Source: Terriglobales bacterium (lineage in GTDB: Bacteria; Acidobacteriota; Terriglobia; Terriglobales; SCQP01). Taken from it: a stretch of 64,000 nucleotides of DNA. The stretch spans positions 60,801 to 124,800 of the forward strand of contig JBOGKQ010000003.1 of NCBI GenBank assembly GCA_050747905.1, written 5' to 3'. A model generated the notes under the pieces. That model searched no databases and was not told where the DNA came from. It saw nothing but the letters and a program-made list of their open reading frames with translations. Positions 9,835 to 14,404 of this stretch are shown one piece after another. The first letter of the stretch is position 1, and every line of letters begins with the position of its first letter. The position numbers were made by a program, and so were the translations under genes.

Positions 9835-10055
9835 GCTTGCCTCCTTACTTCAGTTCCCAACACAAAACTCAGCTCCCGATTTGGCGTGGCACGCTTTGCC
9901 CCACGTGCGTGCGACTTTTCTTGGAGAAAAGCCGCATTCGAAATGGCCGCCTGATTACAACAGGTCTGGACCCGCCCTAGAGCTGCCGATGTTGTATACG
10001 CTCCCACATTCTGGCAAGTCCGCAGCAGCGCCGCAAGCGCAAACCCCTCTTTATT

Positions 10056-11588
10056 TTAGCGCCCGGCCTTCCGCCTCGGTCGCGGTACCGGGTAGGGCAG
10101 TGCCAAGGGTGTACCGGCGGGCGGAGCGTGAGCACCGCTGAGGTGATTGACCTCCCACAGGCGCTTCTCGCCGATATGATAGCGGCGAGCCAGCTCGCGC
10201 CAGCTCTCCTCCCTCTTGACCCAATGCAGCCGCCAATAGACGCGGTCGGGAGGGGGAACCGCCTTCATGCCGCGCTGATAACGAGCCAAGGTACCTTGGG
10301 GCAGTTTCAGCACGTAGCCCTTGGGTACGAGATATTGCAGCAGGGCCGGGTTTAAGTGTTGCAGATCTGCCACAGTCACCCGAGCGGATTCGGCCGCCAG
10401 ACGCAGGTCTTCCGGGTCGGTACTGGTAACCGAGTCGTAGGCAATGGCAGGGTCAGGATCAGGATCGGTCACGCCGTATTGCCTCGGGTTCTGAGCAATC
10501 AGCGCGATGGCCAGGATCACCGGCACATAATTGCGCCAACTGCGCGGTAAAGCGCCCATGTCATAGAGCTTGAAGTAGTTGGCATAGCCGGTACGGGCGA
10601 CGATTTCCTCAATGATGCGGGGACCGGTATTGTAGGCGGCCATCGCCAAGTACCAGCTGCCAAACTCGGCATAGAGTGACTTGAGGTGCTGGGCGGCAGC
10701 CTGGGTGGCCATTTTCGGGTCATAACGTTCGTCAATCCAGTGATTGCGCTTGAGGCCATATTCGGCGGCGCGCTCGGGCATGAACTGCCACATGCCGCGG
10801 GCGCCGGCGCTAGAAGTCAACTTGGGATCAAAGCCGCTTTCCAGCTGGGCCAAGTAAATCAGGTCGGTGGGGATGCCTGCCGCGGTGAAGATCTTGTCCA
10901 CCATGCCGCGATAGCGGCCCGAGCGCTGGAACCCTCGCAGCAGATCGCCACGCCCGCGCGTGGTGAAGTAGTGGACATAGCGAAGAACGGGGTCATTGAT
11001 GACCAAGGGGAGTTGGCCGACGGACTGGCGGGCGAGGGAGACGCGGCTGGCCGCTTCCAGCTTGGCTTTGGTTGCCGAATCGAGGGGAAAGGTGAGTTGA
11101 AGAATCTGACTTAAAGGCGACGCTTGCGGTACGGCAGCGGAAAGACCGCCTTCAGCAAGAGCATCGCTCTCCAGCGCCTGAATGCGATCAAGCAGCGAGT
11201 CCAGTTCGATTTGCAGGCGCGGCGTGGCCGGGATATCGAAATTGCTGCCCAGGAGGTGATCCAAGGCGGCATCGAAGCCATGGCGGGCCTCGTCGAGCTG
11301 CCCCTGATGATCAAGTTGGAGCGCGTTCTGATACTGCTGCTCGACGGCAGAAATGAGGGCCGCTATCGGGTCGGGGCGTTCTGGAGCGGGCGAGGCGGGC
11401 GCAAGCCTGGGAGGAGTGGGGAGGGCGGGAGTGGGGCGATGCGGTGTAAGCACTCGCACTGGCGGCGCGGTTGAATGAGGTGCGGCCTGAGGAGCGGACG
11501 GCGGCTGCGGTGCCTGGACGCGGCAGGCCAACCCGCCGCCGAGCAACACGGTCACCATAGCACTCCAACGCCTCACATGGATTGACAT
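10056..11588 (-). CDS. mltD: MltD-like lytic transglycosylase (SLT + LysM)
   Basis: LAQLESGF, ARGMWQFM, LAMAAYN motifs; C-terminal LysM-like region. Confidence 0.85.
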   Translation of the reverse strand: MSIHVRRWSAMVTVLLGGGLACRVQAPQPPSAPQAAPHSTAPPVRVLTPHRPTPALPTPPRLAPASPAPERPDPIAALISAVEQQYQNALQLDHQGQLDEARHGFDAALDHLLGSNFDIPATPRLQIELDSLLDRIQALESDALAEGGLSAAVPQASPLSQILQLTFPLDSATKAKLEAASRVSLARQSVGQLPLVINDPVLRYVHYFTTRGRGDLLRGFQRSGRYRGMVDKIFTAAGIPTDLIYLAQLESGFDPKLTSSAGARGMWQFMPERAAEYGLKRNHWIDERYDPKMATQAAAQHLKSLYAEFGSWYLAMAAYNTGPRIIEEIVARTGYANYFKLYDMGALPRSWRNYVPVILAIALIAQNPRQYGVTDPDPDPAIAYDSVTSTDPEDLRLAAESARVTVADLQHLNPALLQYLVPKGYVLKLPQGTLARYQRGMKAVPPPDRVYWRLHWVKREESWRELARRYHIGEKRLWEVNHLSGAHAPPAGTPLALPYPVPRPRRKAGR

Positions 11589-11614
11589 CCGAGATTCAGA
11601 TTACCGGAACCGCG

Positions 11615-12667
11615 TCAGGCCCGCAGGGGAAGCATGCCGGCTTCCTTTCTGCGTGCGAGGCGGTTGGGTTTGCGCCCCGACGCTGATACGGATAAGGGCA
11701 ATTGGCGGCGCAGCAAGGGTGGCAAGTCCGAACGCTGGCGCAGCGTGGCCTCCGCCTGTTCGAGCGAAGCCCGGACCAGCTCCTCGCTGCGGCCGGAAAA
11801 CTGCGCCAGCTCCTGCGGACGGAAGCCTTCGAGCAGGTAGAGAACCAAGTCGTGTCGCTGGACAGGAGGCAGCGGCGCCAGCGCAGCCGCCAAGCGCGCC
11901 ATCGCTTCGACCTCGGCAGCGTTTTCTTCCGGATCGGCGTTGGCCGAAGCCACGCGGTCTTCCAGCCGCAGGGTTTCTTCCGTTTCATCGCCGCTACGGG
12001 CCGCTGGCCCATCTGCTTGATCCAGCGACCGGTGCAGTTGGCCGTGGTGCCGCTCCCCGTAGGTGCGGCTGAGATTGCGGATAGCCGCGGCACACAGCAG
12101 TAGAAGCCAGCGCCCACGGTTTAACTGTAGTTCGGCGGGACCGGCATCAAGCGCCGCGACCACGACTTCGTTGAGCACCTCGCTCGGCTCCAGCCAGTCA
12201 GAGGGAAGTTCGCCCAAGTGTTCGCGCAGGGCAATCTGGCGGCGGACAAACGCGAGCAGATGGGCGTAATGGGCTCCAAAGTAAGCGGCCAAATCGGAGG
12301 ACTGCACCGCCGGTGACGGGACCGGCGCCACACGGGCCGGGCGGGTGCGAACATGAAAGCGGGGCCGCGTCTCGCGCAGCCGCTGCTTATGACGATGGAG
12401 CTGGCGCACCAGGTCCTCACTGGCGGCGCGCATCGCCACAGCCGCGGTCGGCGCATTACTTTCGCTGCTCAATTGGCCGGTGGGCAGGTGCAGATTGAGG
12501 CGGCAGCAGACGCCTTCGCGGCTGGTGTGGCGAACCAGCCGGCCCTGCAAGTGCACTAGCTCGGGTTGAAACACCATCAACAACGTCTCCAACTTGTGCT
12601 GGAGGCGACCCACGACCTGATTGATCTCGGGCGAACGCGGAACTTGCACGGTCATGTGAAGGTTCAT
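11615..12667 (-). CDS. HPF/RaiA-like domain fused to ECF-sigma-like regions 2 and 4
   Basis: CRLNLHLPTGQL..SEDLVRQLHRHKQRLR; LPPVQRHDLVLYLLEGFRPQELAQFSGRS. Confidence 0.7.
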   Translation of the reverse strand: MNLHMTVQVPRSPEINQVVGRLQHKLETLLMVFQPELVHLQGRLVRHTSREGVCCRLNLHLPTGQLSSESNAPTAAVAMRAASEDLVRQLHRHKQRLRETRPRFHVRTRPARVAPVPSPAVQSSDLAAYFGAHYAHLLAFVRRQIALREHLGELPSDWLEPSEVLNEVVVAALDAGPAELQLNRGRWLLLLCAAAIRNLSRTYGERHHGQLHRSLDQADGPAARSGDETEETLRLEDRVASANADPEENAAEVEAMARLAAALAPLPPVQRHDLVLYLLEGFRPQELAQFSGRSEELVRASLEQAEATLRQRSDLPPLLRRQLPLSVSASGRKPNRLARRKEAGMLPLRA

Positions 12668-13485
12668 CGAGGTGACCTTTCCGTCTGTCTATGCGGTTTG
12701 ACGCTCGCCAGAGCCGGACGGCTGCGGGGAAATTTTACGCCGGCACGGGCACGCGCGTGATAGTGCCACAACGCGGTGCCTACCGCCAGGGTGCCTGAAT
12801 AGGCGATACCGGATTTGGCGGCTAAGCCATACCCGGCAGGAATCAGTCCAACCAGCTCGCGAGCCAGCGCACGCCACCCCAACGCGCCCACCAGGATGGC
12901 GCCGATCTGGCCAGACTGGGCGCGCCAGCCGACTTCCTGCCCACGCAACGCAGCCAACTCGAAGGCCAGCACCACCTGGTTGGCCGTGAGCAACACCGAA
13001 TCCGAACCCATTTCGCCCAGGGCCAACAGCAAGCTGAGAGGATTGGGAATCACTTCCGGGAGTGCGCTGATGGCCGCCAAGGCGGCATTGCGGGCGGCCA
13101 CGGCTTGAATCAAGTCATGCGCCAAAAGTTCCCGAAATGGAGGAAACGTACGCGCCAGCGCCAGCCGGAACCGGGGATACGAGCGCAGCAACTCGCGAAA
13201 ACCTGAGTCGGGATTAGCGGGGTCCACCCTGACTCCGGCGCCGCCCGGCACTCGAGGACCGCACACGCGCACATCGGCGACAGTGCCGTGTGCGGCCATG
13301 TGTTCAAGGGCGCGGTCGCGCTCGTGTCCGCGCAGCTCATCAGGAACGAACACTCGGATCAGGGCATCGTGTTCGGCCGCGCCGGCGCCTTGCAATTCCA
13401 GCCGGAAGGGCCGCTCGGCATCCTGGCGGATGCGTGAAGGCTTCATGGAACGTGCCTTCTGGAGGCTTTGCTTGAGCATACCCAT
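12664..13485 (-). CDS. Conserved hypothetical protein with hydrophobic C-terminal half (DUF697/EcsC-like)
   Basis: WRALARELVGLIPAGYGLAAKSGIAYSGT; ATGA overlap with next gene; start uncertain (13485 or 13530). Confidence 0.55.
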   Translation of the reverse strand: MGMLKQSLQKARSMKPSRIRQDAERPFRLELQGAGAAEHDALIRVFVPDELRGHERDRALEHMAAHGTVADVRVCGPRVPGGAGVRVDPANPDSGFRELLRSYPRFRLALARTFPPFRELLAHDLIQAVAARNAALAAISALPEVIPNPLSLLLALGEMGSDSVLLTANQVVLAFELAALRGQEVGWRAQSGQIGAILVGALGWRALARELVGLIPAGYGLAAKSGIAYSGTLAVGTALWHYHARARAGVKFPRSRPALASVKPHRQTERSPR

Positions 13486-13568
13486 AGCTCTACTTGCCCT
13501 CCCTTCTTGCAACTGACCTTTATGATGCACCCATTCCGGCAGAACGACTACAATGCCAATGGGAAGTT

Positions 13569-13841
13569 ATGGCCACGGTGTGCTTTGAGGTGTATGGAAG
13601 AGTGCAGGGCGTGGGATTTCGCTACTTTGCCCAACGCCAGGCCAATACCTTGGGATTGGGCGGATGGGTACGGAACCGCGAGGACGGATCCGTAGAAATC
13701 ATGGCTTGCGGCGATGCAGATGCCTTGGACGAAATGGAAGGACGGTTGCGGAAGGGGCCGTCCGGCGCGGCGGTGCGCAGGCTGATCCGTGGTGCAGCGG
13801 AGGAAGCGGCGGCATGGAAGGACTTCAGGATCTTGGAATGA
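13569..13841 (+). CDS. acyP: Acylphosphatase
   Basis: [21 protein letters not shown]. Confidence 0.92.
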
Positions 13842-14404
13842 AAGAAACGATATCCGACATGGCTACGGCGCCCCTTGATGCGAGCCACGAGCTGAAAAAG
13901 TTCATCCGCGAAGTGCCAGATTTCCCCAAGCCCGGCATTTTGTTTTATGACATCACTACCCTGTTAAAGCAGCCCGGACCCTTTGCGCGCTTGGTGGACC
14001 TTCTGGCGCAGCACTACGCAGGTCAGAACATTGCGGTGGTGGCGGGCATTGAGGCACGGGGATTCATTTTTGGACCGGCGCTCGCCTATCATCTGGGTGC
14101 CGGATTTGTGCCCATCCGCAAACCACACAAGCTGCCAGCGGCGACCGAGGCGGTTGAATACAGCCTGGAATACGGCGCCGATCGGATCGAAATCCACCGC
14201 GATGCGGTTGCTCCAGGGCAGCGGGTGCTGATCGTGGACGACCTGATCGCCACCGGAGGCACGGCGGTGGCGAGCGCGCAACTGGTGGAAAAACTTGGCG
14301 GCGTGGTCGCGGGGCTGGCGTTTGTGGTGGAGCTGACGTTTTTGCACGGACGCGAAAAGCTGAGCCGTTACGACGTGTTCTCACTGCTGCGATACGACCA
14401 ATGA
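13838..14404 (+). CDS. apt: Adenine phosphoribosyltransferase
   Basis: [33 protein letters not shown]. Confidence 0.95.

What the first reader, a model, noticed from the sequence alone, without database searches (positions are those of the whole stretch)
11615..13485. Ribosome hibernation factor-like domain fused to an ECF-sigma-like module, coupled to a membrane-type partner
Seen: ~100-aa HPF/RaiA-like N-terminus, then sigma region-2-like and region-4-like segments; ATGA overlap with an upstream hydrophobic hypothetical gene. Known: HPF binds idle ribosomes; ECF sigmas are controlled by co-encoded anti-sigmas. Inference: ribosome occupancy could sequester or release a sigma factor, linking translation state to transcription. 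The architecture may already be in databases; I know of no characterisation.
Basis: partly seen in the sequence, partly recalled or inferred. Interest (0 to 1): 0.6.

Follow-up and report, generated by a model that had tools for sequence, protein, structure and literature searches.

The report
Hibernation factor fused to sigma-like module
This is a real, conserved gene of soil Acidobacteria that joins a ribosome-silencing (HPF/RaiA) domain to a degenerate sigma-factor-like module; the architecture was already noted in a 2025 preprint, but in this lineage it is the only HPF-type gene left, and what the sigma-like part does is still untested.

Summary
Window 11615-12667 (-) encodes a 350-aa protein. 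Residues 1-100 fold as an HPF/RaiA domain (Z 14.1, 1.6 A to ribosome-bound RaiA). Residues 119-321 fold as a two-domain ECF-sigma module. Its ATG overlaps (ATGA) the stop of a 273-aa upstream gene.

The fusion is a conserved family: 100 clusters at E<=1e-10, patchy across Acidobacteriota, with distant relatives on proteobacterial plasmids. It matches the uncharacterised 'HPF-SigE' chimeras of a 2025 preprint. This scan had already noted this kind of fusion 19 times, in at least 17 other genomes.

Added here:
- **Sigma-like module.** It lacks hallmarks of a working sigma. Its sigma4 recognition helix has net charge -1, against +4 in the genome's own ECFs. The region-2.2 Gln is present in 0/61 fusions against 14/15 ECFs. 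It scores below the TIGR02937 cut-off.
- **Sole HPF homologue.** Canonical hpf is missing from the rpoN locus. The chimera is the only HPF homologue in this genome, in its GTDB family and in several other families. The preprint says chimeras always coexist with canonical HPF.
- **Upstream partner.** It is DUF697-like, shows no anti-sigma features, and is confined to part of this family.

Most likely this is a hibernation factor carrying a sigma-derived interaction module, not a ribosome-gated sigma factor. No function has been tested.

The parts
11615..12667 (-). HPF-sigma-like fusion gene, 350 aa. The true start is ATG 12667 (MNLH...), conserved across the family.
12368..12667 (-). HPF/RaiA-fold domain, residues 1-100 (beta-alpha-beta-beta-beta-alpha). 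It carries a conserved 6-residue insertion (FQPELV) after helix 1 and the canonical RQLxKHKQRLRE end of helix 2.
12314..12367 (-). Poorly conserved, low-confidence linker, residues 101-118.
12053..12313 (-). Sigma2-like domain, residues 119-205. It has a 10-residue insertion between regions 2.1 and 2.2. The Trp of region 2.3 is kept; the region-2.2 Gln and the region-2.4 Asn are lost.
11933..12052 (-). Variable acidic loop between the sigma2- and sigma4-like domains, residues 206-245, low pLDDT.
11732..11932 (-). Sigma4-like helix-turn-helix domain, residues 246-312.
11738..11782 (-). Sigma4 'recognition helix' ELVRASLEQAEATLR, residues 296-310. Its net charge is negative, where real ECFs are strongly basic.
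11615..11731 (-). Basic C-terminal tail, residues 313-350. In most close homologues it ends in a conserved ...PQ(R/Q)A; in the window it ends ...LPLRA.
12664..12667 (-). ATGA overlap: the stop of the upstream gene overlaps the start of the fusion gene.
12664..13485 (-). Upstream partner gene, 273 aa. Small alpha/beta N-domain (residues ~25-110) plus a conserved helical, DUF697-like C-domain (residues ~113-250). AlphaFold2 pLDDT 86.7.
13497..13503 (-). GGGAGGG ribosome-binding site ahead of the partner's ATG at 13485. It supports this start rather than GTG 13530.
13520..13530 (-). gtgcatcataa. The GCATC core is kept in 12 of 13 orthologous loci (CATC in all 13), upstream of the partner gene. 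Possible promoter element; function unknown.
10056..11588 (-). Downstream SLT + LysM lytic transglycosylase gene, 26 nt after the fusion's stop. It follows the fusion in all loci seen from the window's family.

Best explanation
The gene encodes a member of the 'HPF-SigE' class of chimeric ribosome hibernation factors. The N-terminal HPF/RaiA domain most likely binds the 30S decoding region of idle ribosomes, as canonical HPF and RaiA do. This is inferred from fold, conserved helix-2 basic residues and analogy; it is not shown. The usual C-terminal dimerisation domain of long HPF is replaced by a complete but degenerate ECF-sigma-derived module. That module keeps the sigma2/sigma4 scaffold and is under purifying selection, but it has lost the residues real ECF sigmas use to read the -35 element and part of the region-2.2 core-binding signature. 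It therefore most likely acts as a protein-protein interaction part, not as a promoter-specific sigma factor; its binding partner is unknown. In this genome and its whole GTDB family the canonical hpf has been deleted from the rpoN locus. No Balon-like or RMF gene was found, so the chimera is the only recognisable hibernation factor and probably carries that function. The upstream DUF697-like gene and the downstream SLT/LysM gene are lineage-specific operon neighbours, not anti-sigma factors.
For: **Shown here**
- HPF fold at Z 14.1, rmsd 1.6 A to ribosome-bound RaiA (8rd8_D), with dozens of other HPF, RaiA and pY chains at Z 11-13.6.
- Basic positions conserved in canonical acidobacterial HPFs are kept at K25, R50 and the end of helix 2.
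- The ECF-like fold of residues 119-321.
- Sigma4 recognition-helix net charge: +4.27 (minimum +3) in 15 ECFs of the same genome, -1.07 (maximum +1) in 27 close fusions, +0.32 in 34 distant fusions.
- Region-2.2 Gln: 14/15 in own ECFs, 0/61 in fusions.
- TIGR02937 scores 36-37 bits against a 42.9 cut-off, while 17 other sigma genes in the genome pass.
- Both modules are conserved well above the linkers.
- Own genome (96.8% complete): the only PF02482 match is this gene. There is no PF16321, Balon-like or RMF match.
- At the own rpoN locus the order is lptB-rpoN-rapZ with no hpf, on a 69-kb contig. The sister family has rpoN followed by long hpf.
- In the window's family, 17/18 genomes have exactly one weak PF02482 match, inside a 320-590-aa open frame (the fusion). 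A canonical long HPF query finds 0/27.
- The sister family has canonical HPF in 12/12 genomes.
- In genomes of five other families the fusion is also the sole PF02482 match, including assemblies of one and two contigs (G157, G178).

**From the literature**
- HPF chimeras with 'SigE' are noted as hibernation-factor isoforms, often beside Balon (bioRxiv 10.1101/2025.11.04.686544).
- The sibling chimera HPFcold was seen by cryo-EM with its HPF domain in the 30S decoding centre (PMC13392368).
- Relatives of this gene sit directly upstream of a baeRF/Balon-like gene.
Against: - No experiment exists for any member of the family.
- The Pfam score of the HPF part is borderline (23.4 against 23.7 bits).
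- Several basic positions conserved in canonical acidobacterial HPFs are lost, and there is a 6-residue insertion after helix 1, so ribosome binding is not guaranteed.
- Loss of canonical HPF occurs in over 10% of bacteria anyway (preprint), so 'sole HPF homologue' does not prove the chimera took over the function.
- ECF sigmas are very diverse. An unusual -35 reading mode cannot be excluded from sequence, and distant family members keep more basic residues in sigma4.
- Some genomes in the tallies are MAGs.
Confidence: 0.55

Rival explanations
1. One reading: a genuine ECF sigma factor. Its N-terminal HPF-like extension tethers it to, or releases it from, idle ribosomes, so that translation state switches on a regulon. 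The upstream gene acts as its anti-sigma factor.
For: - Complete sigma2 + sigma4 architecture with region 2.1-2.4 and 4.1-4.2 equivalents.
- The Trp of region 2.3 and the acidic residues of region 2.2 are conserved.
- N-terminal regulatory extensions of ECFs are known for ECF121/BldN and SigC (PMC7826278).
- The gene is translationally coupled to a neighbour in this window.
Against: - The sigma4 recognition helix is acidic or neutral, where all 15 own ECFs are at +3 or more.
- The region-2.2 Gln is absent in 61/61 fusions.
- The score is below the curated ECF cut-off.
- No neighbour is conserved across the family.
- The partner has no anti-sigma domain and is absent or unlinked in part of the same family.
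- No ECF group with such an extension appears in the main text of the ECF reclassification paper.
Confidence: 0.18
2. PhyR-like sigma mimic. The degenerate sigma-like module does not bind DNA. Instead it titrates an anti-sigma-type protein (NepR-like or other), freeing a real sigma factor. The HPF domain makes this partner switch depend on ribosome state.
For: - Pfam PhyR_sigma-like match (E 6e-4), also precomputed for several homologues.
- Whole-module structural matches include EcfG-type RpoE-NepR (5uxx_C, Z 11.9) and PhyR-SL-NepR (2lfw, Z 10.1), in the closed conformation.
- Loss of DNA-contact residues together with retention of the scaffold is what a mimic would show.
Against: - No receiver domain.
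- No NepR-like small gene or conserved anti-sigma neighbour in any of the three context types.
- Z differences to ordinary ECF-anti-sigma complexes are within about 1-2 units, which is effectively a tie.
- The PhyR/NepR/EcfG system is known from Alphaproteobacteria (own knowledge).
Confidence: 0.12
3. RNAP decoy or tether. The sigma-like module still binds RNAP core but cannot recognise promoters. The protein therefore silences RNAP and/or parks it on hibernating ribosomes, shutting down transcription and translation together.
For: - The sigma2/sigma4 scaffold, the region-2.2 acidic residues (E163, E167) and the Trp of region 2.3 are conserved, while DNA-reading residues are lost.
- Both modules are under selection.
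- The chimera persists where canonical HPF is lost.
Against: - The region-2.2 Gln, important for core binding in sigma70-family proteins (own knowledge), is replaced by Asp or Asn in 55 of 61 fusions.
- No structural or experimental data exist.
- This reading is purely inferential.
Confidence: 0.1

Closest known systems
Chimeric 'HPF-SigE' hibernation-factor isoforms (bioRxiv 10.1101/2025.11.04.686544; named again in PMC13392368)
   Same: An HPF N-terminal domain whose long-HPF dimerisation domain is replaced by a SigE/ECF-like part. Variable genomic location. Relatives lie beside Balon-like genes. Relatives occur on plasmids. Uncharacterised.
   Different: The preprint states that chimeras always coexist with a canonical HPF. 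Here, and in genomes of five further acidobacterial families, the chimera is the only PF02482 homologue, and hpf is gone from the rpoN locus. No Balon-like gene was found in this genome. Acidobacteria are not mentioned in the preprint.
Long HPF (S. aureus, B. subtilis, T. thermophilus) and short HPF / RaiA / pY
   Same: The N-domain fold (Z 11-14, rmsd 1.6-2.5 A) and the basic end of helix 2, RQLxKHKxRLR.
   Different: No PF16321 C-terminal dimerisation domain. A 6-residue insertion after helix 1. Several basic positions conserved in canonical acidobacterial HPFs are lost. A 230-residue sigma-like module takes the place of the C-terminal domain.
HPFcold (Coxiella burnetii CBU_0020; PMC13392368)
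   Same: The same evolutionary principle: an HPF domain fused to a domain borrowed from a stress protein. Cryo-EM shows its HPF part in the 30S decoding centre and the added domain making an extra contact.
   Different: [quoted passage not shown] Here it is a sigma-like module with no known ribosomal target.
ECF (group 4) sigma factors, e.g. EcfG-type RpoE, SigW, CnrH, SigG1
   Same: Two-domain sigma2 + sigma4 fold. The best whole-module match is 5uxx_C, Z 11.9 over 155 residues. The PDB profile search gives E 3e-7 to 7qh5.
   Different: Below the TIGR02937 cut-off. A 10-residue insertion in sigma2. The region-2.2 Gln and the basic sigma4 recognition residues are lost. No conserved anti-sigma neighbour.
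PhyR sigma-like domain (anti-anti-sigma of the alphaproteobacterial general stress response)
   Same: A sigma-derived module that has lost DNA reading and serves as a protein-binding mimic. Weak Pfam PF22233 match and Z 10.1 to 2lfw.
   Different: No receiver domain. No NepR-like partner identified. A different phylum.
DUF697 (PF05128) and GTPase-DUF697 proteins (for the upstream partner)
   Same: The partner's C-domain aligns by hhalign (probability 99.3%) with a protein carrying a sub-threshold DUF697 match. ESM Atlas structural neighbours include GTPase + DUF697 clusters (TM 0.64-0.65).
   Different: No direct Pfam match. The N-domain lacks a P-loop: consensus AADE where a GKS/T motif would sit (inference). 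No solved structure matches above helical-bundle background.

Membership tests
HPF/RaiA (Pfam PF02482, Ribosomal_S30AE) | beta-alpha-beta-beta-beta-alpha fold of about 95 residues | tested here: met
   AlphaFold2 model E2-8, H13-29, E39-46, E53-61, E64-72, H75-99. 8rd8_D Z 14.1, rmsd 1.6 A over 98 residues; 4hei Z 13.6.
HPF/RaiA (Pfam PF02482, Ribosomal_S30AE) | Profile score over the curated cut-off (23.7 bits) | tested here: inconclusive
   23.4 bits on the protein. 26.2 bits in the six-frame genome search. About half of the close homologues carry a precomputed PF02482 match.
HPF/RaiA (Pfam PF02482, Ribosomal_S30AE) | Conserved basic surface of helices 1 and 2 that contacts 16S rRNA | tested here: inconclusive
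   Compared with 12 canonical acidobacterial HPFs. Basic residues are kept at K25, R50 and the end of helix 2. They are lost at five other positions conserved in canonical HPFs.
HPF/RaiA (Pfam PF02482, Ribosomal_S30AE) | Binds the 30S decoding region and inhibits translation | not testable with these tools
   Needs ribosome co-sedimentation or cryo-EM.
Long HPF | C-terminal dimerisation domain (PF16321) | tested here: not met
   No PF16321 match in the protein or anywhere in the genome at E<=1.
ECF (group 4) sigma-70 factors | Sigma2 + sigma4 two-domain architecture | tested here: met
ECF (group 4) sigma-70 factors | Score over the curated cut-off of TIGR02937 (42.9 bits), or Pfam Sigma70_r2/r4 over gathering score | tested here: not met
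   36.2-37.2 bits, covering only model positions 59-164. Sigma70_r4_2 scores 19.3 against 25.7. No Sigma70_r2 match. 17 other sigma genes of the genome pass.
ECF (group 4) sigma-70 factors | Basic sigma4.2 recognition helix (VK-SR-x-RAR type) for the -35 element | tested here: not met
   Net charge -1.07 (27 close fusions) and +0.32 (34 distant fusions), against +4.27 (15 own ECFs). K/R at the four key positions: 44, 0, 7 and 15% in the close fusions, against 93, 67, 87 and 60% in own ECFs.
ECF (group 4) sigma-70 factors | Region 2.2 D-x-x-D-L-V-Q-E core-binding signature | tested here: inconclusive
   The acidic residues and hydrophobics are kept (E163, V164, L165, E167). The Gln is 0/61 in fusions (Asp 43, Asn 12) against 14/15 in own ECFs.
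ECF (group 4) sigma-70 factors | Co-encoded cognate anti-sigma factor or other conserved regulator | tested here: not met
   Three unrelated context types, with no neighbour conserved across the family. The partner has no Pfam or NCBIfam anti-sigma match.
HPF-SigE chimeras (bioRxiv 10.1101/2025.11.04.686544) | HPF N-domain fused to a SigE/ECF-like part in place of the long-HPF C-terminal domain | tested here: met
HPF-SigE chimeras (bioRxiv 10.1101/2025.11.04.686544) | Coexists with a canonical HPF kept in the hpf operon | tested here: not met
   The sole PF02482 match in the genome is the chimera. The rpoN locus lacks hpf. The same holds in 17/18 family genomes, and the canonical long HPF query finds 0/27.
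PhyR-type sigma mimic | Sigma-like domain plus receiver domain, binding NepR | tested here: not met
   No Response_reg match. No NepR-like neighbour seen. Only the sigma-like part resembles PhyR (PF22233 E 6e-4; 2lfw Z 10.1).
DUF697 (PF05128), upstream partner | Profile match over the cut-off | tested here: inconclusive
   No match for the partner or for 34 homologues. The only link is transitive, through P0281 (25.8 against 27.7 bits; hhalign 99.3%). An ESM Atlas cluster with DUF697 in 93% of members scores 0.86.

The most novel reading that the evidence does not exclude
In lineages that have lost canonical HPF, the chimera is the main hibernation factor, and its sigma-derived module still binds RNA polymerase core without reading promoters. 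One protein would then physically couple the shut-down or storage of ribosomes and RNA polymerase, a co-hibernation of the transcription-translation machinery.
Probability: 0.1. Interest if true: 0.85.

Novelty: new member of a known kind. Interest (0 to 1): 0.42.

Why it matters
Ribosome hibernation decides how bacteria survive starvation. HPF chimeras are a recently recognised and untested branch of that machinery. This locus adds two points:

- The chimera can be the only HPF-type protein of a genome. That goes against the published generalisation, and it makes these Acidobacteria a clean system for asking whether the chimera alone supports hibernation.
- The sigma-like part looks like a decoy or interaction module rather than a working sigma. 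That narrows the experiments needed.

If the module binds RNA polymerase or an anti-sigma, it would be a direct molecular link between translation arrest and transcription. If it only replaces the dimerisation domain, it is an ordinary case of domain swapping.

Tried and rejected
- **Wider locus search.** The search for related loci with the diverse alignment A2 failed because no conserved stretch was available. With A1 it found only close Terriglobales relatives, plus one N-domain-only hit in Methylomirabilota.
- **Plasmids.** tblastn of the window protein against plasmids found nothing. A distant family member (P0135) was needed to reach proteobacterial plasmids. I did not test the link to the E. 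coli pEc78 or heat-resistance-island gene.
- **Partner gene, families.** No Pfam or NCBIfam match.
- **Partner gene, structure.** Foldseek against PDB gave nothing at E<=0.001. VIA-align wide gave only helical-bundle-level matches (MxB stalk Z 9.3, bacterial dynamin, IniA), which I do not accept as homology. The anti-sigma reading of the partner is rejected.
- **Balon-like neighbour as a universal partner.** Rejected. It is present only in a subset of the sister family and in one metagenome locus, and no Balon-like gene was found in this genome.
- **Promoters and terminators.** The sigma-70 promoter scan found none in 9900-13900. The only terminator-like sites are on the other strand.
- **ECF reclassification paper (PMC7826278).** It has no HPF-type extension in its main text, and its supplements are not held.
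- **Tool closure.** The contexts of distant partner homologues (P0235, P0255, P0276) could therefore not be read.
- **Inter-domain packing.** No PAE is available from the structure tool, so the packing of the HPF domain against the sigma-like module (pTM 0.48) could not be judged.
Full report
**1. What is there**

The minus strand of the window carries three close-packed genes:
- a 273-aa ORF at 12664-13485. Its ATG is preceded by GGGAGGG at 13497-13503;
- a 350-aa ORF at 11615-12667. Its ATG overlaps the upstream stop as ATGA;
- 26 nt further on, a 510-aa SLT + LysM lytic transglycosylase gene at 10056-11588.

A divergent acylphosphatase gene lies upstream. No terminator-like site lies on the minus strand between the three genes.

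**2. The 350-aa protein is a two-part fusion**

Sequence profiles alone are borderline:
- Ribosomal_S30AE scores 23.4 bits against a 23.7 cut-off, at residues 24-98.
- Sigma70_r4_2 and PhyR_sigma-like match at E about 1e-3, at residues 258-308.
- TIGR02937 scores 36.2 bits against a 42.9 cut-off.

Structure settles it. An AlphaFold2 model built on 27 homologues has an N-domain with pLDDT above 90 and beta-alpha-beta-beta-beta-alpha topology. It is followed by a disordered linker (101-118), a helical sigma2-like domain (119-205), a variable acidic loop, and a sigma4-like helix-turn-helix domain (246-312).
- The N-domain superposes on ribosome-bound RaiA and HPF: 8rd8_D Z 14.1, rmsd 1.6 A, 98 residues; 4hei Z 13.6; dozens more at Z 11-13.
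- Residues 119-321 superpose as a whole on ECF sigmas in their closed, anti-sigma-bound form: 5uxx_C Z 11.9 over 155 residues, then 7qh5, CnrH, SigW and PhyR-SL.
- A family profile hits ECF sigmas in the PDB (E 3e-7) and, weakly, HPFs.

**3. It is a conserved family, and already noticed**
- 44 full-length homologues (316-373 aa, 34-77% identity) come from Terriglobales and Acidobacteria metagenome bins. Annotators call them variously 'RNA polymerase sigma factor', 'HPF/RaiA family protein' or 'hypothetical'.
- An exhaustive search finds 332 clusters at 50% identity, 100 of them at E<=1e-10. Most of the best 150 listed are full length.
- In 401 sampled Acidobacteriota genomes, 41 match at E<=1e-10. 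About two dozen of these, from more than ten families, match over the full length or only in the sigma part of a fusion-sized frame.
- A distant member reaches full-length relatives on 98 proteobacterial plasmids.
- Mean pairwise identity is 69% in the HPF part and 54% and 56% in the sigma2- and sigma4-like parts, against 28-33% in the linkers. Both halves are therefore under selection.

This scan had already noted this kind of fusion 19 times, in at least 17 other genomes, and those notes led me to the literature. A November 2025 preprint on 46,015 complete genomes describes 'chimeric HPF isoforms' in which the long-HPF C-terminal domain is replaced by Csp, SigE or CBS domains. It reports them often next to Balon and also on plasmids, with no experiments on the SigE type. 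A 2026 paper names 'HPF-SigE' in passing. It shows by cryo-EM that the sibling chimera HPFcold sits with its HPF domain in the 30S decoding centre. The ECF reclassification paper does not mention such an extension.

**4. The sigma-like half does not look like a working sigma**

I aligned the sigma modules of 61 fusions with the 15 ECF sigmas of the same genome that pass TIGR02937.

| Feature | 15 own ECFs | 27 close fusions | 34 distant fusions |
|---|---|---|---|
| Net charge of the 15-residue sigma4.2 recognition helix | +4.27 (minimum +3) | -1.07 (maximum +1) | +0.32 |
| K/R at the four classic DNA-contact positions (VK, SR, RAR) | 93, 67, 87, 60% | 44, 0, 7, 15% | not tabulated |

In sigma2:
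- the Gln of the region-2.2 'VQE' signature is present in 14/15 ECFs and 0/61 fusions (Asp or Asn instead);
- the 'IAxN' Asn is lost;
- a conserved 10-residue insertion separates regions 2.1 and 2.2;
- the scaffold residues (Trp of region 2.3, E163, E167, the hydrophobic core) are kept.

This is the pattern of a sigma-derived binding module, as in PhyR, rather than a promoter-reading sigma. What it binds cannot be told from sequence.

**5. No conserved anti-sigma partner**

Gene neighbourhoods fall into three unrelated types:
- in the window's GTDB family: acyP | 270-aa gene > fusion > SLT/LysM;
- in part of the sister family and one metagenome contig: M20 peptidase < fusion > baeRF family-10 (Balon-like) > asparaginase;
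- in several other families: GNAT < fusion > aminotransferase > SpoU.

The upstream gene of the window has 91 homologues, and a few are labelled DUF697 by JGI. Other results for it:
- There is no Pfam match for it or for 34 relatives.
- Its conserved helical C-domain links transitively to DUF697 (hhalign 99.3% to a protein with a sub-threshold PF05128 match).
- ESM Atlas structural neighbours include GTPase + DUF697 proteins.
- No solved structure matches above helical-bundle background.
- No 19-residue window reaches the usual transmembrane hydropathy level.
- It was found in 22/27 genomes of the window's family and 0/53 of the sister family.
- It is adjacent to the fusion in the two genera where I compared coordinates (the window's genus and one other). 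In a third genus it is absent and acyP abuts the fusion. In a fourth it lies on another contig.

It is a lineage-specific neighbour, not an obligatory regulator. The SLT/LysM gene follows the fusion in every locus seen from this family.

**6. The chimera is the only HPF homologue here**
- In the window's genome (96.8% complete), PF02482 matches only this gene.
- PF16321, a Balon-like protein and family, and RMF give nothing.
- The ancestral hpf site is intact but empty. On a 69-kb contig the order is lptB, rpoN, rapZ. The sister family has rpoN followed by a 218-aa long HPF.
- In the window's family, 17 of 18 other genomes give exactly one weak PF02482 match, inside a 320-590-aa open frame, which is the fusion. 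A canonical long HPF query finds nothing in 27 genomes.
- The sister family has canonical HPF in 12/12 genomes, with the fusion as a second copy in some.
- Across the phylum, 372/401 genomes have PF02482.
- In G062, G178, G157 (one contig), G345, G248, G363 and G146, which span five further families, the single match lies inside the fusion gene. G207 (4 contigs, 99% complete) has the fusion and no PF02482 match at all.

This contradicts the preprint's statement that chimeras never replace canonical HPF. It is the strongest argument, though an indirect one, that the HPF half does real hibernation work.

A caveat on data. The tallies include unpublished genomes: G003, G004, G010, G012, G421 and G425 in the family counts, and G054, G077 and G172 in the phylum counts. 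Without them the family figures are 13/14, 0/21 and 16/21, and the conclusion is unchanged.

**7. Does the HPF half keep its ribosome-binding surface?**

I compared it with 12 canonical acidobacterial HPFs. Basic residues are retained at K25 (helix 1), R50 (beta2-beta3) and the helix-2 end (R/H-x-K-x-R). Five other positions that are basic in canonical HPFs are not basic here. A conserved FQPELV insertion follows helix 1. Ribosome binding is plausible but not shown.

**8. Verdict**

- **Best reading (about 0.55).** An HPF-SigE-class hibernation factor that is the sole HPF homologue of this lineage. Its sigma-derived module serves as an interaction part of unknown target.
- **Rivals.** A true ECF sigma with an HPF extension (0.18), a PhyR-like mimic (0.12), and an RNAP decoy or tether (0.10).

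The class is already named in the literature and has been met repeatedly by this scan, so this is a new member of a known but uncharacterised kind. The loss of canonical HPF and the degenerate sigma4 helix are the useful additions.

Noticed in passing
window 13520-13530 (- strand), and the equivalent sites in L001, L003, L021-L029 and L032: A motif G(Y)GCATC(A/C)TA lies 15-45 nt upstream of the partner gene's ATG. The GCATC core is kept in 12 of 13 orthologous Terriglobales loci (CATC in all 13). It may be the -10-like element of the operon promoter. The sigma-70 consensus scan does not pick it up.
   Followed up: partly
window 11615-11640 and 12664-12690 (C-termini of the fusion and the partner); alignments A1 and A3: Most homologues of both proteins end in a similar conserved C-terminus: fusion ...PQ(R/Q)A, partner ...RQ(T/S)A. 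In the window the fusion ends ...LPLRA, and the partner's end is changed to ...HRQTERSPR by the ATGA overlap. This could be a shared degron or PDZ ligand, or coincidence.
   Followed up: no
G353:C2:23775-24840 (locus L042): In one sister-family genome the fusion is split into two adjacent frames, HPF part 1-110 and sigma-like part 115-334. This is either a natural split form or a frameshift.
   Followed up: no
G000:C13:13500-21500 (locus L058): The rpoN locus of the window's genome reads lptB-rpoN-rapZ-ABC transporter-folD-coaE, with no hpf or ptsN-like gene between rpoN and rapZ.
   Followed up: partly
window 12736-13149 and 13150-13485 (partner gene): The partner's N-domain has the beta-alpha layout of a small G-domain. 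Its structural neighbours in the ESM Atlas are GTPase + DUF697 proteins, but the P-loop position reads AADE/GAGAAE instead of GKS/T. It may be a pseudo-GTPase.
   Followed up: partly
L086 (G017:C20:3000-11000), and L084 and L085 (G018): Within the window's family, one genus has acyP directly beside the fusion and no partner gene in the genome. Another genus keeps the partner on a different contig. The fusion > SLT/LysM adjacency holds in all of them.
   Followed up: yes
plasmid records H1-H8 (e.g. NZ_AP023183.1 at 655701-656705): Full-length distant relatives of the fusion family sit on 98 proteobacterial plasmids (Rhizobium, Burkholderia and Paraburkholderia, Sphingomonas). They are annotated as 'sigma-28', 'sigma factor-like HTH protein' or hypothetical.
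   Followed up: no
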